Source of the DNA: Verrucomicrobiota bacterium
Lineage (GTDB): Bacteria; Verrucomicrobiota; Verrucomicrobiia; Limisphaerales; Palsa-1400
Reading direction: 5' to 3'
Assembly: GCA_049510745.1 (NCBI GenBank)
Contig: JBEKYR010000004.1
Coordinates: 96,001 to 160,000, forward strand
Length of the DNA: 64,000 nt
Part shown: piece after piece, positions 31,440 through 52,679 of the stretch
Numbering within the stretch: the stretch's first letter is position 1
Layout: each line of letters opens with the position of its first letter
The notes under the pieces: model-generated
The model's database searches: none
The model's input: the letters and a program-made list of their open reading frames with translations, nothing else
What the model was told of the DNA's origin: nothing
Position numbers and translations under genes: made by a program

Positions 31440-32759
31440 ATGAACGACTACATCGAACGGGTGGTGAATCTGCTCGATCCTGCCCTGAACCGGATCCATA
31501 ACATGACGCTTGAGCAGGCCCAGCAGCGAGTCCTCTCAGGTCAACCCGGCGCTGTGCGGGAAATCGACGGCTCCTTTGCATTGGTTGCGCGCGAGGGCAA
31601 GACCGTTCGAATGGCGCGCTCGATGGACCGGCCGATGCGTTACTTTTTGGCCAAGCGCGCCGAAGGACCGGCGCTCATTGTCGCCGATCGGATCGATGCC
31701 CTATTCAACCAGCTCAGGGCGGAAGGGCTTGAAGGACAGTTCCATCCCAGCTACACGCGAATGGTGCCGGCGCATTATTTGGTTGAACTTCAGCTCATTG
31801 GATGTCCCGATCCCGATCCGATCTACACACGTTATTTTGCGCCGCAACGCGATTCGCTTTCGGCCGATCTGGATGAGATTGGCCGGAGGTACATCGGCGC
31901 GCTGGCGGATGAGATTGCAAAGTGGCTGAGGCGAATTCCGCCGATGGAACCGATCGGCGTCGCGTTCTCGGGCGGCGTGGACAGCGGCGCCGTTTTCCTC
32001 GTGACGTATCATGTCCTGCGGCAATTGGGAATGAGTCCGGGCCGGCTTAAAGCGTTTACCTTGAGTTTGGGCGAGGGGCCGGATTTGCAGCAGGCGCGCG
32101 ACTTTCTGGAACGGCTGGGCCTGGGCTTGTTTCTTGAACCGATCGAAGGCGATCTGGCGTCACTGGACATCACCGAGACGCTTCGCGTGATTGAAGATTA
32201 CAAACCGCTGGATGTGGAGTGCGCTTCGATGGGCCTTGCGCTGTGCGGCGGCGTCCGCGCGCGTTATCCGCAGTGGAAGCATCTCGTTGATGGCGACGGC
32301 GGAGACGAGAACTTGAAAGACTATCCCATCGAGGAAAATCCGGAGCTGACCATCCGCAGTGTAGTGAACAATTTGATGCTTTATCAGGAAGGCTGGGGTG
32401 TGGGCCGCATCAAACATTCACTCACTTACAGCGGCGGGTTGAGCCGGAGCTACTCCCGGACCTATGCCCCGGCCCGCCATTATGGCTTCGAAGGCTTCAG
32501 CCCGTTCACTCGTCCGAACGTCGTTGAAGTGGCGGAGGGCATTCCGTTTGCCGCCCTGACCGGGATGTCGGTGGAAAAGCTTTATGCGCTGAAAGGTGAA
32601 ATCGTCGCGCGCGGCGTCAAGGCCGTCACCGGTCTCGATTTCCCGGTATTTCCCAAGCGCCGATTCCAGCACGGCGCCGTTGACATGGAACGCCTGCGAC
32701 AACACGCTTCCGGCCGGGAATCCGAATACCGAAAGAGCTTCCTGGCGCTTTATAATTAA
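31440..32759 (+). CDS. Asparagine synthetase-like ATP-dependent amide ligase (no N-terminal Cys)
   Basis: IDGSFA...AR relic of the Ntn domain; PP-loop FSGGVDS; DGDGGDE; SPF; K..FQHG. Confidence 0.85.
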   Translation: MNDYIERVVNLLDPALNRIHNMTLEQAQQRVLSGQPGAVREIDGSFALVAREGKTVRMARSMDRPMRYFLAKRAEGPALIVADRIDALFNQLRAEGLEGQFHPSYTRMVPAHYLVELQLIGCPDPDPIYTRYFAPQRDSLSADLDEIGRRYIGALADEIAKWLRRIPPMEPIGVAFSGGVDSGAVFLVTYHVLRQLGMSPGRLKAFTLSLGEGPDLQQARDFLERLGLGLFLEPIEGDLASLDITETLRVIEDYKPLDVECASMGLALCGGVRARYPQWKHLVDGDGGDENLKDYPIEENPELTIRSVVNNLMLYQEGWGVGRIKHSLTYSGGLSRSYSRTYAPARHYGFEGFSPFTRPNVVEVAEGIPFAALTGMSVEKLYALKGEIVARGVKAVTGLDFPVFPKRRFQHGAVDMERLRQHASGRESEYRKSFLALYN

Positions 32760-32807
32760 GGCGGAAACATCCGGTTGAACGACGGATGATTTGGAAACGC
32801 CGCCTGG

Positions 32808-33767: not shown

Positions 33768-33870
33768 TGCCAAAGGACGGTGATTCTATCCGGCTCGGAA
33801 CCGTTTGAAAATGAGATTCGCCCGTGCCAGGGTTTTAGGGAAGCATCAGCCCCGATATCAGCGGTTGAAA

Positions 33871-35039: not shown

Positions 35040-35794
35040 AGATCCGCACCCTCATCGTAGATGACGAATCGCTGGCGCGCAACCGGCTCCGCCAATTGCT
35101 CGAGAACCAACCGGACGTTGAGCTCGTTGGTGAATGCGCGGACGGCCGTGAGGCGGTGGCGACGATCCAGAAACTGAAACCAGACCTCATTTTTCTCGAC
35201 ATCCAAATGCCGGAACTGGACGGGTTCGGCGTGGTGCAAGAGATCGCCGCGGACTGCGCACCGGTCGTGGTGTTCGTGACGGCCCATGACAAATTCGCGT
35301 TGCGCGCTTTTGAGATCCATGCGGTGGATTACCTGTTGAAGCCATTCGATCGCGAGCGGTTTCAGAAAGCATTGCACCGCGCGGTCGAGCACGTAAAGCA
35401 TCACGGCGACGGCGAACTGATCGAGCGGCAGGCCGCTTTGATCGCCGAGCTGAAGTCCCCGAAGATCACCGACCGTCTGGCTGTGAAATCGGGCGGGCAC
35501 ATTGCCTGGTTGAAGCTTGAGGACGTGGACTGGATCAGCGCCGCCGACAATTATGCCGAGTTGCACGTTGGCCCGAAATCGCATTTGCTGCGCGAGACGC
35601 TGGCCAGCTTGGAAACAAGACTGGCGCCCGACAAGTTTGTCCGCATCAGCCGCTCCGTCATCGTCAATCTCGGGCGCATCAAAGAACTGAAGCGGTTGTT
35701 TTACGGTGGTTACGAACTGATGCTTCAGGACGGCACCAAGCTGACCTTGAGCCGGCGTTATCGGGATAAGTTGCGGCAACTGGGCATTGATTAA
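35036..35794 (+). CDS. LytTR-family response regulator
   Basis: IVDDE, FLDIQMP, FVTA, DYLLKP receiver domain; FVRISRS.IVN...L.LSRRY LytTR domain; 4-bp overlap with the kinase. Confidence 0.95.
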   Translation: MKIRTLIVDDESLARNRLRQLLENQPDVELVGECADGREAVATIQKLKPDLIFLDIQMPELDGFGVVQEIAADCAPVVVFVTAHDKFALRAFEIHAVDYLLKPFDRERFQKALHRAVEHVKHHGDGELIERQAALIAELKSPKITDRLAVKSGGHIAWLKLEDVDWISAADNYAELHVGPKSHLLRETLASLETRLAPDKFVRISRSVIVNLGRIKELKRLFYGGYELMLQDGTKLTLSRRYRDKLRQLGID

Positions 35795-35843
35795 GCCGTC
35801 TCTATCCCGAAGGAGCGGCGGGGAACACTGGACCTTCGGCGGA

Positions 35844-35909
35844 CCTTTTGTCCCCAAATCCGAACCGCTTATCCCAATGAACGTGTGTTCCTCTCCGCTG
35901 TTGTACATT
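35844..35909 (+). promoter_or_regulatory. Candidate LytTR boxes (21-bp period) plus -10 upstream of the porin operon
   Basis: CCTTTTGTCCC (35844) and CCGCTTATCCC (35865), then TACATT at 35904. Confidence 0.6.
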
Positions 35910-36026
35910 TCTTGTCCATCACACGACAATTTAAAGCTATCCGATATGATGAATCATGAATTTTGCATCGGTCTGCGTCTGCGGTTTGCCGTTCAACCAA
36001 AACGATCGGGGCCGCTCACCCGCCAA

Positions 36027-37453: not shown

Positions 37454-40324
37454 ATGGGAGATGCTGAAATAGGACCCGCCAACGGACCGGCCAGGAAGAA
37501 ATATGTGCGCGCCATTGGCCCGCGCCTGCGCGTGCTGTTGTATTTCATTTTCGGCCTCATTGCCATCCTGGCCGCCAATTCCGTCTATCTCAGCGCCGTC
37601 ACCTTTCTCGAATGGCTCAAGAGCGACCCCGACACCAGCTACCAAAACTGGTTCTACATGGTGATGTTTGGAACGCACCTTGGCCTCGGTCTGTTGATCG
37701 TCCTGCCCATTGTCGTCTTCGGCGCCTTGCACATCAAAAATGCGCATGACCGCCCGAATCGCCGCGCCGCCAAGGTCGGCTACCTGCTTTTCTTCACGAC
37801 GCTGGTGGTCCTGGTCACCGGCCTGCTGTTGACGCGCGTTGACCTCTTCCATTTCAAGAACGTGGGGCTGAAGGACCCGCGCCTGCGTTCCATCGCCTAC
37901 TGGGCGCACGTGATCACACCTCTTGCGGCGGTCTGGCTTTACATCCTGCATCGGCTGGCTGGACCGCGGATCAAATGGAAACTCGGCTTGCGCTGGGGTG
38001 GCGCCGTCGGGGCGCTCACGGTTGGCATGGTGTTGTTGCACACGGCGCATCCGAGGAAAAACCAAATCGGCTCAACCGAAGGCAAAAAATATTTTGAACC
38101 GTCGCTGGCCCGGACGGCATCGGGGAATTTCATTCCGGCACGGACCTTGATGATGGACAGCTACTGCTTGAATTGCCATCAGGACGCGTACAAGGGGTGG
38201 TTTCACAGCGCGCACCATTTCAGCTCGTTCAACAACGCGCCGTATCTCTTCAGCGTGCGCGAGACCCGGCAGGTTTCACTCAAGCGCGACGGCAATGTGA
38301 AGGCAGCCCGCTGGTGCGCCGGGTGCCACGACGTGGTGCCATTCTTCAGCGGCGCCTTTGACGACCCCAATTTCGACGATGTGCATCATCCCACGGCTCA
38401 GGCGGGAATCACTTGCACCGCTTGCCACGCGATCACCCACGTCAACAGCACAAAAGGCAACGCGGATTACACCATTGACGAGCCGATTCACTATCCGTTC
38501 GCCTACAGCACCAATCGTGTGCTGCAATACGTCAACCAGCAATTGGTGAAAGCCAAGCCCGAGTTCCACAAGAAGACGTTCCTCAAGCCGTTCATGCGCA
38601 GCGCCGAGTTCTGTTCCACCTGCCACAAGGTCAGCATCCCCGGCGATCTGAATCACTACAAGGATTTCCTGCGCGGCCAGAATCATTACGACACCTATCT
38701 GTTGAGCGGTGTCTCGGGGCACGGCGCGCGCAGCTTTTACTATCCCGATCAGGCGAAACAGAACTGCGCCGCCTGCCACATGCCGTTGAAAGAATCCGAA
38801 GACTTCGGCGCGAATTTTTTCAATCCGACGAACCCTTCCGCCCGCTACATTCACGATCATCTTTTCCCGGGAGCCAACACGGGCATTCCATTCATTCGCA
38901 GCGACACCAACACCCTCAAAGCCGAGGAGGAATTCCTGAAAGGTTCGTTGCGCGTCGATATCTTCGGCCTCAAGGAAGGCGGTTCGATTGATGATCCGTT
39001 GACAGCGCCCTTGCGGCCCAAGGTGCCGATGCTCAAACGGGGACAGCGCTATTTGCTCGAAGTGGTGCTGCGCACGATGAAGGTCGGCCATCCGTTCACC
39101 CAGGGCACGGTGGATTCAAACGAGGTATGGGCGGATGGCAAAATAAAAAGCGGCGGAAAAATCGTCGGGCGCAGCGGCGGGCTTGGACCTCACAGGGAAG
39201 TGGATCCGTGGTCTCATTTCGTGAATGTCTATACGCTCGATCGCGACGGCAACCGCGTGGATCGCCGAAACCCGCAGGACATTTTCACGCCGCTCTACAA
39301 TCACCAGATTCCGCCCGGCGCGGGCCAGACTGTGCATTACGAATTCGTCGTTCCCGAAGATCAACGCGAGCCGCTGACTCTGGAGGTGAAACTGCAATAC
39401 CGCAAGTTCGACACGATCTACATGAACTACGTGTTCAACACGAACTATACCCGCGGCGCGCCGTTCACGGTGACGAATGACCTGCCCATCGTAACGATCG
39501 CCATGGACAAGATCACTTTCCCCGTCGAAGGCGTCAGCACAGTCGTAACCAATGAAGATTCCAAAATTCCGGGGTGGCAGCGCTGGAATGATTACGGCAT
39601 CGGTCTGTTTTCCGAGGGGAACGTCGGCGCCGAAAAAGGCGAATTAATCCAGGCCGAAGCGGCTTTCGAGCAGGTGGAGAAGCTCGGCCGAGCCGACGGT
39701 CCGGTGAATTTGGCGCGGGTTTACTTCAAGGAAGGCCGCCTGGACGACGCTGTCGCCGCGCTGCGACGCGCCGCGAGCTTTGATCCACCGGCTCCACGAT
39801 GGACCGTGGCGTGGTTCAACGGCTTGGTGGACAAACAAAACGGTTTTCTCGACAAAGCCATTACCGAATTCCGCAGCATTCTGGAAGATCGTTACGACGA
39901 ACTCGAACAACGGCGCTTCGATTTCAGCAAGGATTACGAAGTTCTCAACGAACTCGGCCAGGCTTGCTACGAACGGGCAAAAATGGAGCGCGGCAATCCG
40001 GAACGACAAAAGGAGTTTTTGAATCTCGCTGTCGAATCCTTCAAAAAAACCCTGGCGATTGATTCGGAAAACCTGACGGCTCACTATACGCTGGCGCTGA
40101 TTTATGCGCAGCTCGGCGACGAGGAGAAGGCCTCCTACCATAGGCAAGAGCATAGGAAGTATCTTCCGGACTACAACGCGCAAGACCGGGCGGTCAGCCT
40201 CGCCCGGCGCGCGGACCCCGCCGCTGATCACGCCGCCCAGGCAACAGTGATCTATCCGCTGCAACGGCCCGGCGCACCGGAACTGGATGAGTCCTATCGC
40301 GCGTTGCCGGCGGCTCTGAAATGA
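37454..40324 (+). CDS. Membrane-bound pentaheme cytochrome c with N-terminal cytochrome b-like TM domain and C-terminal TPR
   Basis: 5 TM helices with 4 His; CLNCH, CAGCH, CTACH, CSTCH, CAACH; TPR helices. Confidence 0.88.
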   Translation: MGDAEIGPANGPARKKYVRAIGPRLRVLLYFIFGLIAILAANSVYLSAVTFLEWLKSDPDTSYQNWFYMVMFGTHLGLGLLIVLPIVVFGALHIKNAHDRPNRRAAKVGYLLFFTTLVVLVTGLLLTRVDLFHFKNVGLKDPRLRSIAYWAHVITPLAAVWLYILHRLAGPRIKWKLGLRWGGAVGALTVGMVLLHTAHPRKNQIGSTEGKKYFEPSLARTASGNFIPARTLMMDSYCLNCHQDAYKGWFHSAHHFSSFNNAPYLFSVRETRQVSLKRDGNVKAARWCAGCHDVVPFFSGAFDDPNFDDVHHPTAQAGITCTACHAITHVNSTKGNADYTIDEPIHYPFAYSTNRVLQYVNQQLVKAKPEFHKKTFLKPFMRSAEFCSTCHKVSIPGDLNHYKDFLRGQNHYDTYLLSGVSGHGARSFYYPDQAKQNCAACHMPLKESEDFGANFFNPTNPSARYIHDHLFPGANTGIPFIRSDTNTLKAEEEFLKGSLRVDIFGLKEGGSIDDPLTAPLRPKVPMLKRGQRYLLEVVLRTMKVGHPFTQGTVDSNEVWADGKIKSGGKIVGRSGGLGPHREVDPWSHFVNVYTLDRDGNRVDRRNPQDIFTPLYNHQIPPGAGQTVHYEFVVPEDQREPLTLEVKLQYRKFDTIYMNYVFNTNYTRGAPFTVTNDLPIVTIAMDKITFPVEGVSTVVTNEDSKIPGWQRWNDYGIGLFSEGNVGAEKGELIQAEAAFEQVEKLGRADGPVNLARVYFKEGRLDDAVAALRRAASFDPPAPRWTVAWFNGLVDKQNGFLDKAITEFRSILEDRYDELEQRRFDFSKDYEVLNELGQACYERAKMERGNPERQKEFLNLAVESFKKTLAIDSENLTAHYTLALIYAQLGDEEKASYHRQEHRKYLPDYNAQDRAVSLARRADPAADHAAQATVIYPLQRPGAPELDESYRALPAALK

Positions 40325-42671: not shown

Positions 42672-43271
42672 CTAAAACTCCAGCGGCACACGGACGATCA
42701 GGCCGCCCATGACATCGCCGGTCTTGAAATCCTTCCTCGGGTTGGCGGCATTCCGATTATGGCAATCGGCACAGGCGTTGACGGTGGCCGCCTCGGCATA
42801 GACGGCGGTGAAATAACGGCGGCCGCCGAGCGATTCCCCGGCATAATAATTCGTGCCGGGATGATCGGCGACGAATCGCAAGCCGGTTTTTTCCGTGTCG
42901 GTTTCCGGTCCGTTCTTTGGATTGATCGGCCACAGGGAGCGAAGGACGTAGTGGAACTCAGCACCCTGCTGTTGAACGGCTTCGGATGCCTGGCGCAGCA
43001 TCCGGGCGTGCATGGCCATGAGGACTTCGTCCGGCCCCGGCGCGCCGCCCGGCGGGCAGGCTTGCAAGACCAGCCGGCCATAGGTTTCCTGGTCGGCGGC
43101 AATCACGGCATGAAGAGCATCGGCCATCTCCTGCGGCTTGAATGCCACCGCCGGTTCCGGCGGCGGCGGGGCCTGTTTGGCTGGTTGCTGCCCGCAACCG
43201 GCGCCGGCCAGGAAAACCAGGCCCGCCAGGGTGAAACCGGGGAAATTGGCTGCTGTTTTTATTTTGTTCAT
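42672..43271 (-). CDS. DUF3365 (Tll0287-like) monoheme lipoprotein
   Basis: Lipobox-like AGAGC; LRSLWPINP.N.P, CADCHN, F..GDVMGG. Confidence 0.85.
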   Translation of the reverse strand: MNKIKTAANFPGFTLAGLVFLAGAGCGQQPAKQAPPPPEPAVAFKPQEMADALHAVIAADQETYGRLVLQACPPGGAPGPDEVLMAMHARMLRQASEAVQQQGAEFHYVLRSLWPINPKNGPETDTEKTGLRFVADHPGTNYYAGESLGGRRYFTAVYAEAATVNACADCHNRNAANPRKDFKTGDVMGGLIVRVPLEF

Positions 43272-44380
43272 GGTCTTTGTTCGTTGTTCGCTTCCGCAGG
43301 AAGGAACCGCCCGCCATGCGCTTTTAACAACTGAAGGTTTGCCTCTCGATTGCCCTGCGAGTCAAAAACAAAAATTCCGGACGCGCCGGTGAAGGAAAAG
43401 TCAATTGGAAAAGCCTCATGCGCCGGACGACCGCCGCTTTGCCGCAGTATGCGGATCAACAACGCCGCCGCGTCGTAAGCCGCCGCAGCCGTCGCGTCCG
43501 GCTCGTGGCCGAAACGCCCGCGGAAGGCGGCGGTGAAACGGTGGAACGCGGCAGTAGCATCCGGTTCCAAAACGGGGGCGGATACTACAAATCCTTCCAT
43601 GGCGTCACCCGCGGTTATCGCGAAGTCAGCCGCGCGCAACCGGCCCGGCCCGGCCAGCGTGCCGGTGAACCCGGCGGTTCGCAATGCTCTCGCCAGTTTC
43701 CCGGCCGCCGCCGGATCCAGCCAGAGCAGAACGGCGTCGGGATGAGTCGCCAGGATTTTTTTGTCAAGCCGGGCCAGGTTTGTGAACGACGGATTCAGGT
43801 CAATTATTATCTCAAGGGTGCAATCACTGTTGGTCGCGGTTTCCCCAAGGTCGCGGGCCGATTCGCGTCCGCCGCGTCCGTCGCGAACCACGGCGGTCCA
43901 ATGGCGGGCAGGGATGCGGGTGAACAGCGTTTTTGCCTCCTCGATGGTGCGGGGAACAACGCGCGCCATCCAAGGGACGCCTGTGTGACTGACAGAAGAG
44001 TCGGCACAGAGAGACATCACCGGCACAGCCGTGCGGCCGGACACCTGCAACACCAAATGCGTGGCCGCGCCATCCGGCGGCGCAATCAAGCCCAGCGCGC
44101 CGTCGTCGGTGACCATCCGGGCGGCTTCCACGCCGTCCGCGCCCCATTGCCCGGAACGTCCGCGAATCACCAGGCTCGCGCGCGGTCCGGGAGATTGATT
44201 GGCCACCTCCACACCGAGCGTCGCGCCCTCACGCAGGCCGGCGGCCTGGGGTTCCTCGGGCGGGACGAGCAGGCCGATGACGAGGTTGGGATTTTGCGCA
44301 ACCGCTTCACCCGCATGCAAACACGCCGCGCCTGCCATCAGGGCAATGGCGGCAACGGTGGAACGCGCGTTGAAGTGCAT
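43268..44380 (-). CDS. Type-1 periplasmic binding protein (LivJ-like), orphan
   Basis: Signal peptide; IGLL.P...G..L.VE.AN, F...F..RFG..P...AA.AYDA, FTGASG...FD..GNR. Confidence 0.85.
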   Translation of the reverse strand: MHFNARSTVAAIALMAGAACLHAGEAVAQNPNLVIGLLVPPEEPQAAGLREGATLGVEVANQSPGPRASLVIRGRSGQWGADGVEAARMVTDDGALGLIAPPDGAATHLVLQVSGRTAVPVMSLCADSSVSHTGVPWMARVVPRTIEEAKTLFTRIPARHWTAVVRDGRGGRESARDLGETATNSDCTLEIIIDLNPSFTNLARLDKKILATHPDAVLLWLDPAAAGKLARALRTAGFTGTLAGPGRLRAADFAITAGDAMEGFVVSAPVLEPDATAAFHRFTAAFRGRFGHEPDATAAAAYDAAALLIRILRQSGGRPAHEAFPIDFSFTGASGIFVFDSQGNREANLQLLKAHGGRFLPAEANNEQRP

Positions 44381-44383
44381 CCC

Positions 44384-45763
44384 TTACTTCGCCGCGGTCT
44401 TGACCGGCTTTGAGGTCGGCTCCGGGAAGTAATGCCAGCGGCCTTGCCGGTATTCGGCATAGACAATCGGCGCGATGTTGTCCCAGCGGCCGTCAAAGCG
44501 CATGTGACCGGTCACGCCGTTGTATTCGTCCGTGGCGGCCATCACGTCGCGGATGCGGTAGCGGTTCGGCCCGGCCTTCTTGATCGCGGCGATGAGCATT
44601 TGCGCGCCGTCGTAGCTGAAACCGGCGTAGATATCCGGCTTGATGCCGTAACGCTTTTCGAAGCGCGCCACAAAACCCGTCCACGCCGGGTCGGTTTTGT
44701 CCGGGTCGAAAAAGTAGGCTGCGGATGTTCCTTCCGCCGCCAAGCCGGCGAGTTTGACGAAATCCGGGTCCACGAGCCGGTCAAAGCCGTAGAACGCGGC
44801 CTTCACGCCCACCGCCCGCAGTTGCGCGGCCGCCGGGCCGGTCTCGGCGGCATTGCCCCAAAAGACGACGGCCTGAGGGTTCGCCTGTTTGATGACGGCC
44901 ACCTGCGTGTCGAACGTGCGGTCGCCGTCCTTGAAATTGATTTCCTGCAACACCGGATGGCCCAGCCGGCGCACGGCGTCCACAAAGGGCCGGACGCCCA
45001 TGCGGCCGGGACGGCTGTTGCCACGCAGCACCACGATGTTGGTCAGCCCGCGCTCCTCCACCATCAGCCGGGCCAGCAGATAACCCTGCTGCCGGTTGTC
45101 GGGAAAAACGCGCAACAGCCAGGGAATCTGCGTCTCGGTCAGCGAGGGATCGGGGTCGGAACAATTCACCATGAACGTCTCGATTTTCAACACCGCGCGG
45201 AGCGCGACGTGGGTGGCGTCGCCGTCAATCGTGCCGAGGAATGCCAGCACATTAGTGTCGGCGAATTCGACCGCGATGTTCGCGGCGCTGCCCCACTGCG
45301 GCGAGTCGGCTTTGGCGATAAGCTCGAAAGGCAGTTCGCCGGGCTGGCGCGCGGCATTGGCTTCCTCGAGGGCCAGCGTGACACCGCGTTTGGTCATTTC
45401 GCCGCGCGCGGCTTCCGGGCCATCGGGTGCCGGACTGAGCAGCCCGACCCGGAGCGTTTTCAAGTCGGGCGGAGCGGGATAATCCCGGCCTGGCCCGTAG
45501 AAATTCAGGCGCGTCAGCCAGTAACGGTAATAAGGTTCGATGTTGCGATAGGGCAACATTTCCTCCGGCACGTTTCCGTAGAAGGGATAGACACCTCCGT
45601 AGAACGGATAGCCCTTGTCGGGCTTCTGCGCTGCTGGCGCGCCTGGCGGCAGGACCGGTTCGGCGATATAGTTGGTGTTGGTATCCTCCTTGTCTTCGTA
45701 GGCGCACCAACCGGCCGGCGCGACGGCCAGCGCACAGATCGCCATCAGGAATACTTTTTTCAT
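44384..45763 (-). CDS. Type-1 periplasmic binding protein (LivJ-like) with Tyr/Pro-rich N-terminal extension, orphan
   Basis: G..LALEEANA, LTE...PW..R..P, F...F..RYG..P......SYDG, GVTG...FD. Confidence 0.85.
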   Translation of the reverse strand: MKKVFLMAICALAVAPAGWCAYEDKEDTNTNYIAEPVLPPGAPAAQKPDKGYPFYGGVYPFYGNVPEEMLPYRNIEPYYRYWLTRLNFYGPGRDYPAPPDLKTLRVGLLSPAPDGPEAARGEMTKRGVTLALEEANAARQPGELPFELIAKADSPQWGSAANIAVEFADTNVLAFLGTIDGDATHVALRAVLKIETFMVNCSDPDPSLTETQIPWLLRVFPDNRQQGYLLARLMVEERGLTNIVVLRGNSRPGRMGVRPFVDAVRRLGHPVLQEINFKDGDRTFDTQVAVIKQANPQAVVFWGNAAETGPAAAQLRAVGVKAAFYGFDRLVDPDFVKLAGLAAEGTSAAYFFDPDKTDPAWTGFVARFEKRYGIKPDIYAGFSYDGAQMLIAAIKKAGPNRYRIRDVMAATDEYNGVTGHMRFDGRWDNIAPIVYAEYRQGRWHYFPEPTSKPVKTAAK

Positions 45764-45772
45764 GGATGCCTC

Positions 45773-46354
45773 CTATCCAACGAGAATGGCAATGGCTTCA
45801 ATTTCCACGAGCAGATCACTCCGGCAAAGTCTCCCCTGAACCCCGGTGCTGGCCGGGAACGGATCCAGTCCCAGCGCGCGGTAAAACTCGTTGCGGATGG
45901 AATTGAACTCGCCGTAGTCGCGCTCGATGTCGCGGATGTAGCAGGTCGTTCGGACGACGTCATGCCAGGTGGCTCCCTGGCTTTCGAGCAGCCCGGTCAG
46001 GTTGTGATAGGTGCGCCAGAGTTGGGCGCGGAAATCGCCGGGATACATCGTCTCGCCATCCGGGCCGACGCTGGCGGTGCCACTGAAGTAAAGTTGCGTG
46101 ATGCCGCCGGGCAGGTCCACGCGCAGGCCGCGCACGAAGGCCGCGCCATATTCCGGGGCTTCGTTCAAGACCTTCGGCTCGGCGATGGCTTTCTTGCCGA
46201 CCGGGGTCCGGCCTTTTGGCAAACGCTTGATGGCGCGGGGAGGGGATGGCTCGCAGGGAGGCAGCCCGAGCGCGCGGCGCTCAATTTTTTCCGCGTCGGA
46301 ATAGTTGACAACCCGGTCCGCTTGACTGCCGGGAATGACAAAGTTCGTTTTCAT
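45773..46354 (-). CDS. YjgF/RidA-superfamily protein resembling the C-terminal domain of FkbO/Hyg5 chorismatases
   Basis: AF.RG, SGTAS, GD..AQ..RT..N, LCR.DLLVEIEA; GAAAGG SD upstream of this ATG. Confidence 0.8.
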   Translation of the reverse strand: MKTNFVIPGSQADRVVNYSDAEKIERRALGLPPCEPSPPRAIKRLPKGRTPVGKKAIAEPKVLNEAPEYGAAFVRGLRVDLPGGITQLYFSGTASVGPDGETMYPGDFRAQLWRTYHNLTGLLESQGATWHDVVRTTCYIRDIERDYGEFNSIRNEFYRALGLDPFPASTGVQGRLCRSDLLVEIEAIAILVG

Positions 46355-46383
46355 AATGTTCGTTGACCTTTCTTGAATCATCG

Positions 46384-47517
46384 TTATTTGGCGTCCGCGA
46401 CCTTGGCGGGTTTCGGCGGAGCCGCGAAATAGGCGCGCGACAGCCCGTCGGAAGTGGCGAACCAGGCTTCGTGGTCGTCCACCCAGATGCCGAGGACAAA
46501 ATCATTCGGCAGCTTCGTGGACATCGTCCGTGTCTCGACGGTCTGGCCCGGGCGCGTGATTTCAACGATGCCTTCGCCCTTTTCGTTGGTGCGATAATTG
46601 ACCCAGGTGTCGCCGTCGGTCACGGAAAGGCCGCGGTCGGTGCCCACCCAGGCGACACGGCCATGCGGCCAGATGAAGTTGACGAAATTGGAGACGAGCG
46701 GCGATTTTTTCTCCTCCCAGGTGCGCCAGCGCGAGCCGTCGTAGCGCGCCATGCCAAAATAGGTGGCCTGCCAGAGAATGCCGTCCTCCCAGGCTACCCA
46801 GGAAGTGATGTCGCTAATCGGGCCGGCGTCATGCACCAACTCGAAATGAAAATCGCGGTCGGGGTCGCGGTGTTCCTTGAAAATCTTATTGGCCAGTTCG
46901 TATTCGAGAATGCCGCCGCCCCACACCCCCACGAAGATGCGGTCTTTCGCGCCTTTCACCGCATAGACCCACGGCTCGTGCATGACCGTGTTGCTCTGGT
47001 CAAAGATGGACCATTCCCCGGTCTTGAGATTCAATGCTCCCAAGCCCGCAGCGGTGGCGACCCAGAGCGTGTCGTCCAGGATGTCCACTCCATAAACCAC
47101 GTTGTTCGGCAGGCCGCTGTCGGTTTGCAGATAGCTGGTGATGCGTCCGGCGCTGTAGCGATTCAACCCGCGCATCGTGCCGATCCACATGTCGCCGGTG
47201 CGCTTGTCTTCCACCATGCACAAAACCATCTTGTGGCTCAGGCCGTCTTCGAAGCCGATGCGGCGAAACTTTCCGTCCTCGCGCACCAAGACGCCGTTGT
47301 AGGTGCCTACCCAGAGCTTGCCATCGCTGGCGCGCAAGACGCAGTGGGCCTTGTGGGTGGGCATTCCGTCCTTCATCTGGAAGTTTTCAAACCGGTCAAT
47401 CAACGGGAAGGGCAGGTCGTCCGTGCCCGTTGCCGCGGCGCGGACGCAGGGCGCGACCAGGAACAGGCAGAACGCCAACCCGGCCGTGAGGATTAGTGAA
47501 CTTAACTTGGTTTTCAT
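46384..47517 (-). CDS. Secreted beta-propeller made of two-component-regulator propeller repeats
   Basis: Signal peptide; repeated GL....V..+..D..G.+W+GT..GL motifs; no kinase domain. Confidence 0.85.
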   Translation of the reverse strand: MKTKLSSLILTAGLAFCLFLVAPCVRAAATGTDDLPFPLIDRFENFQMKDGMPTHKAHCVLRASDGKLWVGTYNGVLVREDGKFRRIGFEDGLSHKMVLCMVEDKRTGDMWIGTMRGLNRYSAGRITSYLQTDSGLPNNVVYGVDILDDTLWVATAAGLGALNLKTGEWSIFDQSNTVMHEPWVYAVKGAKDRIFVGVWGGGILEYELANKIFKEHRDPDRDFHFELVHDAGPISDITSWVAWEDGILWQATYFGMARYDGSRWRTWEEKKSPLVSNFVNFIWPHGRVAWVGTDRGLSVTDGDTWVNYRTNEKGEGIVEITRPGQTVETRTMSTKLPNDFVLGIWVDDHEAWFATSDGLSRAYFAAPPKPAKVADAK

Positions 47518-47536
47518 GGTATGCATTCCTCCGGGT

Positions 47537-49483
47537 TTACAGTGTTTTCAGAAAGTCGATCAAATCGTTGAGCTGGATTTTGTTCATATAACTGCTCACG
47601 CCGTGCATGTCGTTCGTATTGTAGGTGGTCCAGAGTTCCTCCAGTGTCTGGGCCCGGCCGTCGTGAAGATACGGCGCGGTGGTGGCGATGCCCAACAGGT
47701 GCGGGGTGTCGAACATCCCTCCGGTGCCCACATCGAAAGAGAGCCGCACCGAGTAAAGCGGCGGACGATGGCAGGTCGAGCACCGGCGTTCCTGCGGAAT
47801 CTCCTTGCCGTCCGGGGTCCTGGTGGCGAAGAAAATCGCGTTGCCGCGTTCTTGCGCCGGCGTCAACCTTCCATCCGCGCTCCTTGCGACGCGCGACGGC
47901 GGCAGTGACTTGATGAATGTCGTCAAGTCCCGCAAATCTCCCGGCGGAATCGGGTCGGTGCGCATCAACACCCGGGCGAATCGCGGGCCGCACTGCACTT
48001 CGAGGCTGGGATTTTTCCCGTTCCACTTGAACGGCTCGGTTCCGGCCACGCCCATCAGACTGCGGTTGTCCAGCAGGTTGTCGCCAATGCCGCTGGTGTC
48101 AAAATCATAACTGAGGCCGTCCACGTGGCCGTCGGGATGGCAGGAGCGGCAGGAAAACTGATTCTGGAACGTGTAACCCGCCTTCGTGAAAACCCTCTCA
48201 CCACGCCGGATCGGGTCGTTCAATCCGCCGTCGCCCAACACGATCCGGCCCCGCGCGCACAGGCTCCTGGCGTCCAACACGAGGATGCTGTCGGCAAGCC
48301 GCTCCGCAACGAACAGCGTGCCGCCATCCGGGCTGATCGCCAGTTGCTTCGGATTGCGGCGGGTGGGAATGCGGGCCGTGACGTATTCGGGTGAAAGCGA
48401 AAGGTCGTAAACCGCCTCCCGTTTCGTGGCCGGGTCCGCTTTTTCCAGCCAGGCCGCCAGTTTCTCCAAGTCCACGACCGTGACCACGTCGCCGCCGCCG
48501 GAGGCGATGAAGGCGCGGCGGCCAGCCGGGTCCGTCACGACTGCCGACGGATCGGCAAAATAATTGTTTGCCTCGTCGAGCGGCATCTGGATGACCGTGC
48601 CGGTTTTGATGTCCGTGACCGCCAGTCCGCTGGACATCACCCAGCCGCCGGCCACCTGCGTGATGGGGACAAGATTGCGCACCTTGACCAGCGACGTCAG
48701 CATCCATGGCCGCGAGGGCACGGCGCAAACGCCTTCCGACAGATGGGCCGAATCCAATGATTCGCGCCGCACCGTGCGCGCTGTCATCGGGTCAATCTCG
48801 GTGATTTCCGACGCGGGACCTGCCATAACCGGGCCCAGTCTGACCAAGCGGTTGGCGGCGAAAGCGCGAGTTCCGTCCGGAGTGATGGCCACGGCATACG
48901 GCTGGCGTCCGGCCAGGGGCCGGCCCAGTTCCTGCAATGGCGAGACGGAAAGCACCGAAATGTCATCCGACATGGAATTGGCCACCACAAGCCGGTCGCC
49001 GGACGCTGTGCGGCAAAAGGCCACCGCCACAGGCCCCATTCCCACCGGCGCCGACGCGGTTTCGCTCAAAGTTTGCGTGTCCAGCACCGCCAGGCGGTCG
49101 CCGTCCCGGCAGGTGACGAAGAGGCTTTTGCCCGCCGCATCCAAAGCCAGTCCGAATGGCCGGCCCGCCACTTTGGCCCGGCGGAGCACCTTCCGCGAGG
49201 CAATGTCCGCCTCGGCCACTTCATCGCGATCATCAAGGGCGATGTAAATCTTCTTTCCGTCCGGCGAAACCGCCAGGCCGGCAGGGGCATCGTGGTGGGG
49301 CCTGGGTTTCGCCCACGGAAGACGGGCAGTTGAAACGAAATGGCAGTTGAAACAGGTGACCTTCGCGAGGTCTTTTTGACCCGACATCCGCCGCATGTGA
49401 TCTGTCCAGTCGTGCTTAAGCCCAAGACCCGGCCCGACAAATCCCGCCAAGATCAATGCGAATGAAACGCAGCGTCTTTTCAT
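47537..49483 (-). CDS. Triheme fusion: N-terminal heme + YVTN/YncE beta-propeller + di-heme cytochrome c peroxidase/MauG-like domain (HzsB-HzsC-like architecture)
   Basis: CFNCH; P.GLA.SPDG repeats; G...F...SCRSCHPDG, PF.WNG, RG..IF...CSTCH, TP.L.G....APYLHDGRA.TLEE. Confidence 0.85.
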   Translation of the reverse strand: MKRRCVSFALILAGFVGPGLGLKHDWTDHMRRMSGQKDLAKVTCFNCHFVSTARLPWAKPRPHHDAPAGLAVSPDGKKIYIALDDRDEVAEADIASRKVLRRAKVAGRPFGLALDAAGKSLFVTCRDGDRLAVLDTQTLSETASAPVGMGPVAVAFCRTASGDRLVVANSMSDDISVLSVSPLQELGRPLAGRQPYAVAITPDGTRAFAANRLVRLGPVMAGPASEITEIDPMTARTVRRESLDSAHLSEGVCAVPSRPWMLTSLVKVRNLVPITQVAGGWVMSSGLAVTDIKTGTVIQMPLDEANNYFADPSAVVTDPAGRRAFIASGGGDVVTVVDLEKLAAWLEKADPATKREAVYDLSLSPEYVTARIPTRRNPKQLAISPDGGTLFVAERLADSILVLDARSLCARGRIVLGDGGLNDPIRRGERVFTKAGYTFQNQFSCRSCHPDGHVDGLSYDFDTSGIGDNLLDNRSLMGVAGTEPFKWNGKNPSLEVQCGPRFARVLMRTDPIPPGDLRDLTTFIKSLPPSRVARSADGRLTPAQERGNAIFFATRTPDGKEIPQERRCSTCHRPPLYSVRLSFDVGTGGMFDTPHLLGIATTAPYLHDGRAQTLEELWTTYNTNDMHGVSSYMNKIQLNDLIDFLKTL

Positions 49484-50943
49484 TTCTCAGATTTGGCCTT
49501 GGCCAGCTTTGCCGTTTCCAAACTCAGGCACGGCACAGGCGCGTTCACGGCCAGCGGGCGATGGTTGTGCGGAGCGCGATTGGGAGGTGGGTGACAGCCG
49601 ATGCAGGAGCGGTTTTCGCCCGGACGCACCCACATGAAGGGACGCTGCCGCCGAAGGGTTCGTCCGCTTTCGCCAATCACTTCAAAGCCCAAAGGCATAT
49701 CCGCCGGCACTTCGGCGAGAAATGAGCCGTCGGCTTGCACCGGAACCTCTCCGAGCGGCCGGACAATTCCCGGCGAGATCTCCGCGGTCACACGGACGCG
49801 AGTTGCCGAAGGCGGCGGCCCATCATTGTCAGAAGAGTCCCGCGTGAAGTTCGCGTCGAGACAAAGAATTTTTCCGGTCCGCTTTGTGAAATCCAGAGTT
49901 GAAAGCCGTCCCAGGGGCGGGCGATGAGCAGAGACTTCGACCGCCTCCAGAAAGCCCCACTTCGGATCGGCAACGAGTGGCGCGCCTAAAGTGGTGGCGC
50001 TTGCGCTGAGGCGGAACACCGCCGGTAAAGTCCAATTGCCCGGCAGCCCCGCGGCGCAAGCCAGGAAATCCTCATCGCCGGCCGGTTGCACCGACAGGAG
50101 ACGCGCCATCACGTTCGAGAGCAACAGCGAACCATCCTGGCAAGGTCGTGCCATGCGGACGAATTCCGCCAGACCCTCCGGCGAACCGGAGCCGGCTTTG
50201 GGAACGAGGAAGGCAACCCGACCGCCGGAAATCTGACGGGGTTGTGCCATCAGTGACACCGGAAGTTTTTGTTCGGCGAACTCTGTAATCTCCGTGCCGT
50301 CGTTGTTGATCGTGTAAAGCGCGCATTCAGGCGCGGAGCCCGGCGACGGACTTTGCAGGGCGGCGAACAGAATTCTGCCATCCGAGAGCACCGTGGAGTC
50401 GAGGACCGGACTCGAACCGAACGTGAGCTGGCGGGGCTGGCCGCCCGGCGATTGCACGAACAGCGCCGACGGGCGCCGGCTTGCTTTTGCGCCATCGATT
50501 TTGGGCACCGGTGAAATGAAAACGAGACTCCCGTTGGGCAAGAGTGTCGGACTCATGGCGCCGCCAGGCATCGAGGTCAAAACGCGCGGACCCCAGCCTG
50601 CCAATAGCGTTTCATAAATTTGCCAGTCGCTTGCGGCTGTGGCCTTGCCGACGAAGAAAATGCGCTCTCCGTCATACGAAACAACCGGACTGCCGGCGGC
50701 AACGAGAGATTCCGAAAGGATTTTCTCGTGTCTTGCGTCAAAAGGCGCTTCCCGGAGAACCACGCGGCTGCCGATTGGATAACGCGCCTCGAGAACATCC
50801 GTTGCCGGATGAATTGCGGCCGAAGCCGGCGCCTTCGTCAAAACCAGCGAGCCGGATGGCGCGGGCCGGTCGCATCCGGCGCCAACGAGAAGGAGCAGAC
50901 CAACGGCAGAGCATTCGATTTGGGAAATACGTTCCGCTTTCAC
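49480..50943 (-). CDS. Hydrazine synthase alpha-subunit-like lipoprotein (propeller + HZS-alpha middle domain + one heme)
   Basis: Lipobox-like GAGC; P.VSYDG..I.F, DGRILF, LYTINNDGT; LGEVPVQADGSF..EVPAD.P..F......G...W+RPGENRSCIGCH. Confidence 0.8.
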   Translation of the reverse strand: MKAERISQIECSAVGLLLLVGAGCDRPAPSGSLVLTKAPASAAIHPATDVLEARYPIGSRVVLREAPFDARHEKILSESLVAAGSPVVSYDGERIFFVGKATAASDWQIYETLLAGWGPRVLTSMPGGAMSPTLLPNGSLVFISPVPKIDGAKASRRPSALFVQSPGGQPRQLTFGSSPVLDSTVLSDGRILFAALQSPSPGSAPECALYTINNDGTEITEFAEQKLPVSLMAQPRQISGGRVAFLVPKAGSGSPEGLAEFVRMARPCQDGSLLLSNVMARLLSVQPAGDEDFLACAAGLPGNWTLPAVFRLSASATTLGAPLVADPKWGFLEAVEVSAHRPPLGRLSTLDFTKRTGKILCLDANFTRDSSDNDGPPPSATRVRVTAEISPGIVRPLGEVPVQADGSFLAEVPADMPLGFEVIGESGRTLRRQRPFMWVRPGENRSCIGCHPPPNRAPHNHRPLAVNAPVPCLSLETAKLAKAKSEK

Positions 50944-52679
50944 GGTGCCTTTTGTTCGGCGGGTTCACGCACTTTGAAGATTTGATCCACAGGAACGTTG
51001 GTCAACTCCTGGACCACTCCGCTCGGCCATCGAATTTCCATGCGATCCACCATCGTCGCTTTGCCGAGACCGAAATGCAGGCGCCGGTCACTCTGCATCA
51101 GGAAACCGAACGCGCAGCGCGCTTCACTGAAGAGGGTCTTGCCGCCCGCGGTGAGCTTCACTTTTGCGCCAAAGCCATCCCGATTGCTCTTCACCCCCTG
51201 CAAATCAAGCGTCAGCCAGTGGTTGCCGGATTTATCGCGGTTGTGAAGCAGAAACGGACGGTCCCCGATCGTGGTGACTATTATGTCCATTCGACCGTCA
51301 TTGTCATAATCGGCGACCGCAGATCCTCGCGCATTAATCTTGGTTTTGAAATAAGCGCCACCCTTTGCCGCGGCATCCGTGAATGTGCCGTCGCCGCGGT
51401 TTTCCAACAGCAGACTTTCCCAGCCGACCAGGTAATGCGGATCGCCGTTGGCAATGAAGATGTCGAGCTTGCCGGAATTGTCGAAGTCGAGGGCACAGCC
51501 GCCCCAACCGACGAATTGCGCGGTCAGCGCGCCGAGACCGGATGCCATCATGCGGTCGTCATAAATTCCGTTAGTTCTGCCCATGTAAAGCGAACCATAC
51601 CCAAGGCGCGTGATGAGCAGGTCCTGCAGGCCGTCGCCCTTGAAATCGGCTATCGTAGCCGCCATTGAGCCGGCGGCCTCGCCCATGGCGTTGAAGGCCA
51701 CGCCAGCCTGGAGCGCGATGTCTTTGAAGTGGCCCCTGCCGTCGTTGACCAGCAGCAGATTCGGCGTGCCGTCGTTGGAGACATAAAGATCCGGCGCGCC
51801 GTCGCCGTTGCAATCAAACGTCGCCACCGACATCGCCCGGTGTCCGGCAATTTCGATGCCGGAAGATTTGCTGACGTCCTCGAACGTGCCGTCACCGCGA
51901 TTGTGATAGAGCTTGTTGAACTGAGGCTTGTAGGAGAGCGGGCCGGGATACGCGTCGGGATTGTAATAAAGCTGGTAATTAGGATCAAAGGCGAGATAAT
52001 TCGCAACGAAGAGATCGAGCTTGCCATCGTTATCCGCGTCGAGCCAGACCGCGCCAATGCCTGTGCCGCCGAGATTGGCGACCCCTGCTTTTTCAGTCAC
52101 GTCTTCAAAAGTGCCGTCGCCTCGATTGTGATAAAGATAGCAGCGCCCCACACCAACGACGAAAAGGTCCTCATGCCCGTCGTTGTCGTAGTCACCGGCG
52201 ATCGCGGCCGTGCAATAGCCCATGCCGCTCAAACCGGCTTTTTCTGTGACGTCCTCGAACGTGCCGTCATGCCGGTTGCGGTAAAGACGATTGGGCTGGC
52301 GGACGGTGCCGGGCGGGTGATGCGTGACGCCGTCCAGCGGCCCGGAATTGACGAGGAACAAATCGGGCCAACCATCGCCATCATAGTCAAGCCAACAACC
52401 CCCCGCGCCGTTGGATTCCAGGATGTTGGCAATTTTTGAATCACAGAACTGGTGGACGAACTTGATGCCGGCCTTGGCGGTGACATCCTCGAACAAATCG
52501 TCCGGCCCGGCGGGAATCGGAGGCGTTGTCGCGCGACTCGGCGATGCTTGGGGCGGGCTGGAAGGCGAACGCCGCGTGATCGTTTTAACGCCGGCAACAG
52601 CCAGCGCCACAACCAGAATTAGCAACAAGGCGACCCCGATCTTGCGAGAACTTTTTTTTTGCTGGTTCATAGTTGACAT
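50940..52679 (-). CDS. CRTAC1-like FG-GAP/ASPIC-UnbV protein #3 (N-terminal TM anchor)
   Basis: Repeated DYD.DG..DL, RG.A.ADYDNDG, SNRDG.GA, LHFGLG. Confidence 0.9.
   Translation of the reverse strand: MSTMNQQKKSSRKIGVALLLILVVALAVAGVKTITRRSPSSPPQASPSRATTPPIPAGPDDLFEDVTAKAGIKFVHQFCDSKIANILESNGAGGCWLDYDGDGWPDLFLVNSGPLDGVTHHPPGTVRQPNRLYRNRHDGTFEDVTEKAGLSGMGYCTAAIAGDYDNDGHEDLFVVGVGRCYLYHNRGDGTFEDVTEKAGVANLGGTGIGAVWLDADNDGKLDLFVANYLAFDPNYQLYYNPDAYPGPLSYKPQFNKLYHNRGDGTFEDVSKSSGIEIAGHRAMSVATFDCNGDGAPDLYVSNDGTPNLLLVNDGRGHFKDIALQAGVAFNAMGEAAGSMAATIADFKGDGLQDLLITRLGYGSLYMGRTNGIYDDRMMASGLGALTAQFVGWGGCALDFDNSGKLDIFIANGDPHYLVGWESLLLENRGDGTFTDAAAKGGAYFKTKINARGSAVADYDNDGRMDIIVTTIGDRPFLLHNRDKSGNHWLTLDLQGVKSNRDGFGAKVKLTAGGKTLFSEARCAFGFLMQSDRRLHFGLGKATMVDRMEIRWPSGVVQELTNVPVDQIFKVREPAEQKAP

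What the first reader, a model, noticed from the sequence alone, without database searches (positions are those of the whole stretch)
47537..50943. Hydrazine-synthase-like hzsA + fused hzsBC pair in a probable non-anammox organism
Seen: two coupled genes (4-bp overlap). One is a lipoprotein with a propeller and the motif LGEVPVQADGSF...PGENRSCIGCH. The other is a YVTN propeller fused to a di-heme CcP/MauG-like domain, with an extra N-terminal CFNCH heme. Established: anammox hydrazine synthase consists of alpha (propeller, middle domain, hemes), beta (seven-bladed propeller) and gamma (di-heme peroxidase-like) subunits, and beta-gamma are fused in Scalindua. Here alpha ends after one heme and lacks the C-terminal heme domain. 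Inference: a structurally homologous complex doing different chemistry, possibly NO/hydroxylamine handling, N-N/N-O bond chemistry or cofactor maturation.
Basis: partly seen in the sequence, partly recalled or inferred. Interest (0 to 1): 0.85.

Follow-up and report, generated by a model that had tools for sequence, protein, structure and literature searches.

The report
Hydrazine-synthase-like heme operon, not anammox
These two genes are real but distant relatives of the anammox enzyme hydrazine synthase; they lack the residues needed to make hydrazine and belong to a widespread gene-cluster type published in 2025 whose actual reaction is still unknown.

Summary
Observation confirmed. 49480-50943 encodes an HZS-alpha homolog (PF18582 above cut-off; model matches 5C2V alpha 54-629) and 47537-49483 a fused beta-gamma homolog with an extra N-terminal heme. 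They sit in an eight-gene operon (CRTAC1-like, alpha, beta-gamma, propeller, Rid, two binding proteins, Tll0287-like cytochrome) conserved in Verrucomicrobiota, Acidobacteriota and Bacteroidota. Gene order, heme counts and tree place it in 'clade III' HZS homologs of Hagglund et al. 2025 (PMC12758564). It is not hydrazine synthase: alphaTyr591, alphaCys303, heme alphaII, gammaAsp168 and gammaHis144 are missing, and carriers are not enriched in HAO or NirK. It is also not a plain peroxidase or MauG (no distal Glu; second heme His/His). Added here: the gammaCys165 position is Cys, Asp or Glu in 59 of 61 homologs, suggesting a conserved third heme link; the extra heme follows a membrane anchor and a conserved His; DAHP synthase and an AsnB-like ligase travel with the operon. 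Best guess (0.3): a membrane-anchored periplasmic complex activating O2/peroxide to oxidise a small aromatic substrate. Known kind, function open.

The parts
50940..52679 (-). CRTAC1-family protein (FG-GAP repeats + ASPIC/UnbV), first gene of the operon
   Evidence: Pfam PF13517/PF07593; only PDB hit human CRTAC1 9ETN; present in 50 of 54 loci
49480..50943 (-). HzsA-like probable lipoprotein: six-bladed TolB-like propeller + HZS alpha middle domain with one c-heme; no heme alphaII domain
   Evidence: present in 51 of 54 loci, the 3 misses at contig ends
49591..49605 (-). CxxCH of the alpha-like protein (heme alphaI equivalent); two-residue gap where HZS has Ser590-Tyr591, so His451 is the likely iron ligand
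   Evidence: profile alignment to 5C2V_A; conservation
47537..49483 (-). Fused HzsB-HzsC-like protein: membrane anchor + extra heme, seven-bladed YVTN propeller with the HZS-beta blade insertion, di-heme CcP/MauG-fold domain
49340..49468 (-). Hydrophobic helix (res. 6-22), conserved His29 and N-terminal CxxCH (44-48): inferred membrane-proximal His/His heme
   Evidence: His 10-27 residues upstream in 124 of 128 three-heme homologs, exactly 15 upstream in 116; hydrophobic window in 104 of 114
47978..48151 (-). Heme I (gammaI equivalent) CxxCH 445-449 and distal segment: Trp487, Gln497, Cys498 (= gammaCys165), Pro500, Arg501, Phe502 (= gammaAsp168); no catalytic Glu
47603..47782 (-). Heme II CxxCH 568-572 and His627 (= gammaHis332): His/His electron-transfer heme
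   Evidence: His627 in 61 of 61 rows; Fig. S7 label H332
46384..47526 (-). Secreted Reg_prop-type beta-propeller
   Evidence: PF07494; directly downstream in 50 of 54 loci
45773..46381 (-). Cytoplasmic Rid-family protein lacking the RidA arginine; weak FkbO/Hyg5 chorismatase similarity (homologs start at Met10)
   Evidence: in 32 of 54 loci
44384..45763 (-). Periplasmic binding protein 1 (Peripla_BP_6), no permease or ATPase beside it
   Evidence: found in 45 of 45 carrier genomes vs 1 weak match in 35 non-carriers
43268..44380 (-). Periplasmic binding protein 2 (fused to protein 1 in some Acidobacteria)
42672..43271 (-). Tll0287-like monoheme cytochrome, probable electron carrier
   Evidence: PF11845; 23 of 54 loci, CxxCH lost in 2
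31440..32759 (+). AsnB-like ATP-dependent amide ligase (accessory; tail-to-tail with a RaSEA-like radical SAM gene at 32808-33773)
   Evidence: in 32 of 45 carriers vs 8 of 35 non-carriers, often within 10-20 kb

Best explanation
The pair is the heme core of a membrane-anchored periplasmic complex built on the hydrazine-synthase scaffold (clade III of the published HZS homologs) that does oxidative, not hydrazine, chemistry. SHOWN (sequence, models, tree): three-subunit HZS architecture in two chains, conserved operon, loss of the HZS catalytic residues. INFERRED: electrons enter at a membrane-surface His/His heme behind the N-terminal anchor (from quinol or the Tll0287-like cytochrome), pass through His/His heme II and Trp487 to five-coordinate heme I; heme I, held by a third covalent link (thioether with Cys, ester with Asp/Glu) and lined by Gln/Pro/Arg/Phe instead of Glu/Asp, binds and activates O2 or peroxide; the oxidised or reactive product passes along the beta-propeller interface to the His-ligated alpha heme for a second step. 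SPECULATIVE: the substrate is a small shikimate-derived aromatic supplied by the co-travelling DAHP synthase, Rid and AsnB-like/radical-SAM enzymes and carried by the two orphan binding proteins.
For: Architecture. Complex: ipSAE median 0.48, best control 0.00, contacts agree at least 65%, partner pLDDT at least 80; weak: the mark was reached by 116 of 157 solved complexes and 2 of 215 mismatches, at 0.60 or under by only 18 of the 157 and both mismatches, and a like complex (5C2V) is solved, so it may be from memory. Gene coupling in 51 of 54 loci. Heme II His/His plus bridging Trp plus no distal Glu plus a distal Phe resembles the ligand set of the CcP-fold dioxygenase RoxA, which has no peroxidase activity (passages of PMC6311187, PMC10837239; the Phe equivalence is by analogy, not alignment). 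Position 498 is C46/D12/E1/A1/F1 in 61 rows with at least 5 Cys-to-acid switches on the tree, against BLOSUM62 -3/-4; Asp/Glu-heme methyl esters form autocatalytically via H2O2 and compound I in myeloperoxidase (PMC5437232 passage). The host has four COX1-family matches, so O2 is plausible. DAHP synthase lies in 16 of 18 acidobacterial loci at three different positions; AsnB-like in 32 of 45 carriers vs 8 of 35 non-carriers.
Against: No activity, spectrum or expression datum exists for any member. Clade I members include strict anaerobes (PMC12758564), which argues against O2 as the family-wide co-substrate. The window's own operon has no DAHP synthase (the genome's only close copy is on C32); Rid is missing from 22 of 54 loci and AsnB-like from 13 of 45 carriers. 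Cys/Asp/Glu could equally be a metal ligand or acid-base residue; two rows have Ala or Phe. Phe502 is kept in only 39 of 61 rows (Thr 11, Ala 6). An electron wire into heme I fits a reductase just as well.
Confidence: 0.3

Rival explanations
1. NO / hydroxylamine handling: heme I reduces NO or another N-oxide with electrons from the membrane heme, and the alpha heme processes or condenses the product (detoxification or N-N/N-O chemistry other than hydrazine).
For: Closest solved relatives of all three modules are the HZS subunits; His/His heme II, Cys498 and Arg501 are shared with HZS gamma; this genome has NirK and an octaheme HAO-family gene; Suarez et al. proposed HZS-like enzymes with alternative substrates (PMC10732223 passage).
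Against: No co-occurrence: HAO family 7 of 45 carriers vs 6 of 35 non-carriers; NirK 8 of 45 vs 12 of 35; both genes lie on other contigs. gammaAsp168, 4.08 A from the iron and stabilising the axial water in HZS (bioRxiv 2023.01.22.525020 passage), is Phe; alphaTyr591 is deleted.
Confidence: 0.17
2. Quinol-fed periplasmic terminal reductase or electron-transfer complex for some other acceptor (organic peroxide, S-oxide, humic or metal-organic compound), with the binding proteins capturing the substrate.
For: Membrane anchor + conserved His + CxxCH; clade I homologs carry 4-8 extra hemes in the same place; Tll0287-like cytochrome in the operon; a cytochrome-b-like/pentaheme/TPR gene lies 7 kb away.
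Against: The pentaheme gene is not obligate: 0 of 8 Opitutaceae carriers, and present in 6 of 35 non-carriers. Clade II lacks any extra heme. Does not explain the Rid, DAHP synthase or AsnB-like partners.
Confidence: 0.13
3. MauG-like maturase that oxidises Trp/Tyr residues of a partner protein in the operon (propeller, CRTAC1-like or binding protein) to build a protein cofactor.
For: Trp487, Gln497 and Pro500 match MauG Trp93, Gln103, Pro107 by spacing; the Reg_prop propeller has many invariant Trp/Tyr.
Against: No Glu at the MauG Glu113/BthA Glu277 position (columns 504-509), which is needed for bis-Fe(IV) and peroxidase activity in BthA; heme II has His, not the Tyr needed for bis-Fe(IV) (PMC6405878 passages). 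Invariant Trp are expected in propeller blades.
Confidence: 0.12
4. Periplasmic sensing scaffold: hemes bind a gas or report redox state, binding proteins and the Reg_prop propeller relay the signal; no turnover.
For: Two binding proteins without permease or ATPase, a two-component-type propeller, a LytS/LytTR pair nearby in the window and in several loci.
Against: The two-component pair is not a fixed neighbour; an electron wire and an invariant Trp bridge fit catalysis better.
Confidence: 0.1
5. Plain di-heme cytochrome c peroxidase with accessory propellers.
For: PF03150 hit above cut-off (34 bits vs 25.6); Trp, Gln, Pro retained.
Against: Distal Glu conserved in bCcP/MauG/BthA is absent; second heme has His where bCcPs have Met (Met ligand recalled); obligate alpha-like partner.
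Confidence: 0.05
6. Genuine hydrazine synthase in an unrecognised anammox organism.
For: Domain inventory; Cys498.
Against: NCBIfam scores 50 of 800 (alpha) and 175 of 1250 (beta-gamma); five key features missing; octaheme protein scores 57 vs HDH cut-off 900; same conclusion in print.
Confidence: 0.01

Closest known systems
Clade III homologs of the hydrazine synthase complex (Hagglund et al. 2025, Genome Biol Evol, PMC12758564; representatives Maribacter luteus, Lutibacter citreus)
   Same: CRTAC1-like gene upstream of alpha, alpha upstream of fused beta-gamma, two binding proteins downstream, alpha without heme alphaII, one extra heme on beta-gamma, Trp at gammaHis144, two-residue gap at Ser590/Tyr591 (vs 28, 45, 51); groups with the Bacteroidota locus L064 in a three-heme clade, SH-aLRT 96.
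   Different: Verrucomicrobial host; keeps Cys at gammaCys165 where the two published clade III representatives have Asp (Fig. S7); operon adds Rid and a Tll0287-like cytochrome; only 37% identical to L064.
Anammox hydrazine synthase (Kuenenia HzsABC, PDB 5C2V; fused beta-gamma in Scalindua)
   Same: Folds of alpha (to residue 629), beta with its blade insertion, and gamma; Cys165, Arg167, His332 equivalents.
   Different: No heme alphaII, Tyr591, Cys303, Asp168, His144; Gln at the beta-loop Glu; reversed gene order; membrane anchor and extra heme; 17-24% identity in structure alignments.
bCcP/MauG superfamily (CcP, MauG, BthA, MbnH)
   Same: Di-heme fold, bridging Trp, distal Gln and Pro.
   Different: No distal Glu; His/His second heme; fused propeller; probable third heme link.
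Rubber oxygenase RoxA
   Same: CcP-fold core, His/His C-terminal heme, open N-terminal heme; weak PF21419 hit below cut-off.
   Different: No overall homology beyond the core; RoxA is a stand-alone secreted enzyme with no alpha/beta partners. A functional analogy only.

Membership tests
Hagglund clade III HZS homologs | Gene order CRTAC1/FG-GAP, alpha, fused beta-gamma, then two ABC substrate-binding proteins | tested here: met
   vs text
Hagglund clade III HZS homologs | Alpha has heme alphaI only and lacks the C-terminal part | tested here: met
   one CxxCH, model aligns to 5C2V 54-629
Hagglund clade III HZS homologs | Beta-gamma with exactly one extra N-terminal heme motif and Trp at gammaHis144 | tested here: met
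   CxxCH 44/445/568; Trp487
Hagglund clade III HZS homologs | Phylogenetic grouping with clade III rather than clades I or II | tested here: met
   quick IQ-TREE, 89 rows: 39-row three-heme clade (SH-aLRT 96) with Bacteroidota L064; Granulicella L46 (clade II representative, L061) and 6-10-heme proteins outside. The paper's own Maribacter/Lutibacter sequences were not in the tree; L064 stood in for them.
Hydrazine synthase (HzsABC) | NCBIfam equivalog cut-offs NF052339/NF052342 | tested here: not met
   50.1 of 800; 175.3 of 1250
Hydrazine synthase (HzsABC) | alphaTyr591 heme ligand | tested here: not met
   two-residue gap at Ser590-Tyr591
Hydrazine synthase (HzsABC) | alphaCys303 zinc ligand | tested here: not met
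   Lys226; the paper notes Scalindua also lacks it, so it is weakly diagnostic
Hydrazine synthase (HzsABC) | Heme alphaII domain | tested here: not met
Hydrazine synthase (HzsABC) | gammaAsp168 and gammaHis144 | tested here: not met
   Phe502 and Trp487
Hydrazine synthase (HzsABC) | gammaCys165 third heme link; His/His heme gammaII | tested here: met
   Cys498, His627 by alignment; the bond itself is not testable here
Hydrazine synthase (HzsABC) | Hydrazine dehydrogenase in the same genome | tested here: not met
   single octaheme PF13447 protein scores 57.3 vs 900; genome 94% complete
Hydrazine synthase (HzsABC) | Hydrazine formation from NO/NH2OH and ammonium | not testable with these tools
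   needs an assay
Bacterial di-heme cytochrome c peroxidase | Distal Gln-Pro-Glu triad at the five-coordinate heme | tested here: not met
   Gln497 and Pro500 present, no Glu among the top residues of columns 504-509 in 61 rows
MauG/BthA-type maturase | His/Tyr six-coordinate heme enabling bis-Fe(IV) | tested here: not met
   His627 invariant, matching HZS His332
RoxA-type oxygenase | Distal Phe stabilising bound O2 | tested here: inconclusive
   Phe502 lies at the HZS distal Asp168 position; no alignment or superposition with RoxA was obtained

The most novel reading that the evidence does not exclude
The complex is a second N-N (or N-O) bond-forming enzyme on the hydrazine-synthase scaffold: heme I generates an activated nitrogen or oxygen species, the alpha heme couples it to an aromatic amine or amide made by the DAHP synthase/Rid/AsnB-like/radical-SAM genes, giving an unknown periplasmic cofactor or natural product in common soil and sediment bacteria, and preserving the ancestral reaction from which anammox arose; its heme I would also be the first c-type heme whose third link alternates between thioether and ester.
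Probability: 0.1. Interest if true: 0.85.

Novelty: new member of a known kind. Interest (0 to 1): 0.33.

Why it matters
The origin of hydrazine synthase is an open question, and these clusters are its closest non-anammox relatives; finding their reaction would show what the scaffold did before anammox and would stop false 'hzs' calls in metagenomes. That case was already made in print in 2023-2025 and this scan has met the cluster type many times, so one more copy adds little. What this copy adds are testable details: a compact clade III member that keeps the third-link Cys, the Cys/Asp/Glu alternation, a membrane-proximal heme, and evidence against a nitrogen-cycle link.

Tried and rejected
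Anammox metabolism in the host: one PF18582 match only, one HAO-family protein far below the HDH cut-off, no NirS above cut-off. Link to NO supply or HAO: not enriched (45 of 54 carrier genomes were used, the 9 left out mostly on short contigs, and 35 of 53 relatives without a close match, chosen mostly by completeness; 5 of those 35 hold distant, about 30% identical, beta-gamma-like genes; kin are not independent). Idea that the cytochrome-b-like/pentaheme/TPR gene at 37454-40324 is an obligate electron donor like the anammox ETM (kuste2855/56; only named in the passage read): rejected as obligate; homology to kuste2855/56 was not tested. Recent horizontal transfer: GC of the region equals the genome's 60%, though distribution is patchy (7 of 61 genomes, own included, with a match of 60% or more). 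Promoter/terminator scan at chance level. No RNA holder listed, which says nothing on expression. Structure searches with the whole beta-gamma model were filled by propellers and did not test the heme domain; the gamma assignment rests on sequence profiles. The complex was folded with alpha cut at residue 436, which removes its heme motif, and no contacts were returned. Rid could not be assigned: generic Rid hits outrank Hyg5/FkbO. The DAHP synthase's BagF/FevY hit is below cut-off and below the generic models, so no link to nitroso-benzoate pathways is claimed. A first motif regex matched nothing and was corrected. Earlier-finding look-ups by sequence and place returned nothing.
Full report
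Observation. The two minus-strand ORFs, their 4-bp overlap, the motifs and the heme counts are as described. The 487-aa protein hits PF18582 above cut-off and 5C2V alpha by sequence and by model (pLDDT 82.6; TM 0.72; Z 32.6 over residues 54-629). The 648-aa protein's best NCBIfam hit is the HZS beta-gamma fusion; profiles hit 5C2V beta and gamma over their whole lengths; its model (pLDDT 93.7) matches 5C2V beta at Z 44.5. Close homologs are labelled Verrucomicrobiota/Limisphaerales, so the host is very probably of that group; the genome is 94% complete with one PF18582 match.

Surroundings. The pair is genes 2-3 of a tightly packed operon, 52679 to 42672: CRTAC1-like, alpha-like, beta-gamma-like, Reg_prop propeller, Rid, two Peripla_BP_6 binding proteins without permease, Tll0287-like cytochrome. 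Among 54 genome loci found with the beta-gamma protein, alpha is present in 51, the CRTAC1-like gene in 50, the propeller in 50, binding protein 1 in 48, Rid in 32, Tll0287-like in 23; misses of the core genes are at contig ends. Binding protein 1 is found in 45 of 45 carrier genomes and once, weakly, in 35 non-carriers. All strong genome matches to the CRTAC1-like protein lie in this window, which also holds an AsnB-like/RaSEA-like pair, a LytS/LytTR pair and a membrane pentaheme TPR protein. Most acidobacterial loci use the order alpha, CRTAC1-like, beta-gamma and carry a DAHP synthase in 16 of 18 loci at three positions. The loci were found with peptides of the window's protein, so the sample leans to its relatives.

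Prior description. Hagglund et al. 2025 (PMC12758564; I read parts 1-6 of 9 of the text, and supplement parts 1, 13, 110, 111 plus two term searches) describe four clades of co-located alpha and fused beta-gamma homologs. Clade III has the FG-GAP gene upstream of alpha, two binding proteins downstream, no heme alphaII, one extra heme on beta-gamma, Trp at gammaHis144 and a two-residue gap at Ser590/Tyr591; they conclude these proteins cannot make hydrazine and give no function. Every listed feature is met here, and Pedosphaerales hits are already in their Table S3. In my tree of 89 rows the window's protein lies in a 39-row mostly three-heme clade (SH-aLRT 96) with Bacteroidota locus L064, next to the 6-10-heme clade I type, with Granulicella L46 (their clade II) outside (quick search, no bootstrap). 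Suarez et al. 2023 (PMC10732223, passages) had reported hzsA upstream of fused hzsBC in Phycisphaerae and suggested a wider family with other substrates. Earlier agents of this scan reached the same identification in other genomes (unchecked notes, not independent evidence).

Active-site residues. Alpha: gap at Ser590-Tyr591, Lys226 at Cys303, so the CxxCH His is probably a normal iron ligand and there is no HZS zinc site. Beta: the blade insertion is kept but the loop Glu (Glu253, number recalled) is Gln276. Gamma: Trp487 for His144, Cys498 for Cys165, Arg501 for Arg167, Phe502 for Asp168, His627 for His332. Asp168 lies 4.08 A from the iron and stabilises the axial water in HZS (bioRxiv 2023.01.22.525020, passages). 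Against bCcP/MauG/BthA, Trp, Gln and Pro keep their spacing but the Glu required for peroxidase and bis-Fe(IV) activity is missing and the second heme has His rather than Tyr (PMC6405878, passages).

Details I did not find discussed in the parts of the paper read or in paper searches. (1) In the 61 rows of clades I-III the Cys165 column is Cys 46, Asp 12, Glu 1, Ala 1, Phe 1, with at least five Cys/acid switches (the 28 rows of the distant outer clade were left out of this count). The Asp is visible in their Fig. S7 but the text mentions only clade I's Cys. Asp and Glu form esters with heme methyls autocatalytically through H2O2 and compound I in myeloperoxidase (PMC5437232, passages), so the simplest reading is a third heme link kept as thioether or ester, implying that heme I can reach a high-valent state; a metal-ligand or acid-base role is not excluded. 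(2) The extra clade III heme follows a hydrophobic helix and a His placed exactly 15 residues before the CxxCH in 116 of 128 three-heme homologs (124 within 10-27; the 4 misses are gene calls that start after it), i.e. probably a His/His heme at the membrane surface. (3) No link to the nitrogen cycle: HAO family 7 of 45 vs 6 of 35, NirK 8 of 45 vs 12 of 35, although this genome has both genes elsewhere. (4) The AsnB-like gene is in 32 of 45 carriers vs 8 of 35 non-carriers, but also accompanies the pentaheme module in non-carriers, so it may serve CRTAC1-type islands in general.

Complex. A model of beta-gamma 58-648 with alpha 30-436 scored 0.48 (runs 0.48, 0.34, 0.65) against 0.00 for three controls, contacts agreeing at least 65%, partner pLDDT at least 80. 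The tool rates this weak (116 of 157 solved complexes and 2 of 215 mismatches reach the mark; only 18 of the 157, and both mismatches, at 0.60 or under), and 5C2V is a solved look-alike, so it shows likeness rather than binding. Translational coupling and synteny are the better argument.

Mechanism. I favour (0.3) a membrane-anchored periplasmic complex in which a heme wire feeds five-coordinate heme I, which activates O2 or peroxide, with a second step at the alpha heme, acting on a small aromatic compound. The ligand set (His/His heme, bridging Trp, no Glu, hydrophobic distal residue) recalls the CcP-fold dioxygenase RoxA (PMC6311187, PMC10837239, passages), an analogy only. Against it: anaerobes carry clade I, the aromatic-pathway partners are not universal, and the wire fits a reductase equally. 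Rivals: NO/NH2OH chemistry 0.17, other terminal reductase 0.13, MauG-like maturase 0.12, sensor 0.10, plain peroxidase 0.05, true HZS 0.01. Dietl et al. 2015 was not read; its residues are taken from the papers above and from the 5C2V alignments.

Verdict. Real, well conserved, already described kind; function unknown and worth an experiment, but this copy is a new member of published clade III. Interest 0.33.

Noticed in passing
window 37454-40324 (+): 956-aa protein with four N-terminal hydrophobic His-bearing helices (cytochrome-b-like by eye), five CxxCH (c554-like) and C-terminal TPRs, followed by a CRTAC1-like gene; found in 28 of 45 carriers (11 acidobacterial matches lack the membrane part) and 6 of 35 non-carriers, so a separate module.
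   Followed up: partly
window 31440-33773: Convergent AsnB-like (no N-terminal catalytic Cys) and RaSEA-like radical SAM (TIGR01210, below cut-off) pair, highly conserved (59-87% for the AsnB-like protein) across three phyla and linked to CRTAC1-type islands; product unknown.
   Followed up: partly
window 29485-60126: Five FG-GAP/CRTAC1-like genes (29485, 40332, 50940, 52935, 56236) cluster in 31 kb; 29485 and 40332 are close paralogs; 52935 is a TPR fusion divergent from the operon and recurs beside it in many loci.
   Followed up: partly
window 33951-37436 (+): LytS/LytTR two-component pair followed by an alginate-export-like outer-membrane barrel; same neighbours in several Verrucomicrobial loci.
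   Followed up: no
L061:13496-14437 and 15 other acidobacterial loci: Dedicated class I-beta DAHP synthase inside or beside the operon, at three different positions.
   Followed up: partly
G000:C23:64385-66169 (-): Octaheme HAO-family protein, far below the HDH cut-off; oxidative or reductive type not determined.
   Followed up: partly
G000:C2:135868-160487: Dense multiheme cytochrome cluster (11, 9, 9, 7, 6, 4, 4 CxxCH), possibly extracellular electron transfer.
   Followed up: no
P0001 vs window 47537-49483: The database gene call of the beta-gamma protein starts at Met30 and loses the membrane anchor and conserved His29; the coupled ATG at 49483 is the better start.
   Followed up: yes
L032 and L034: Tll0287-like gene has lost its CxxCH in two Opitutaceae loci.
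   Followed up: no
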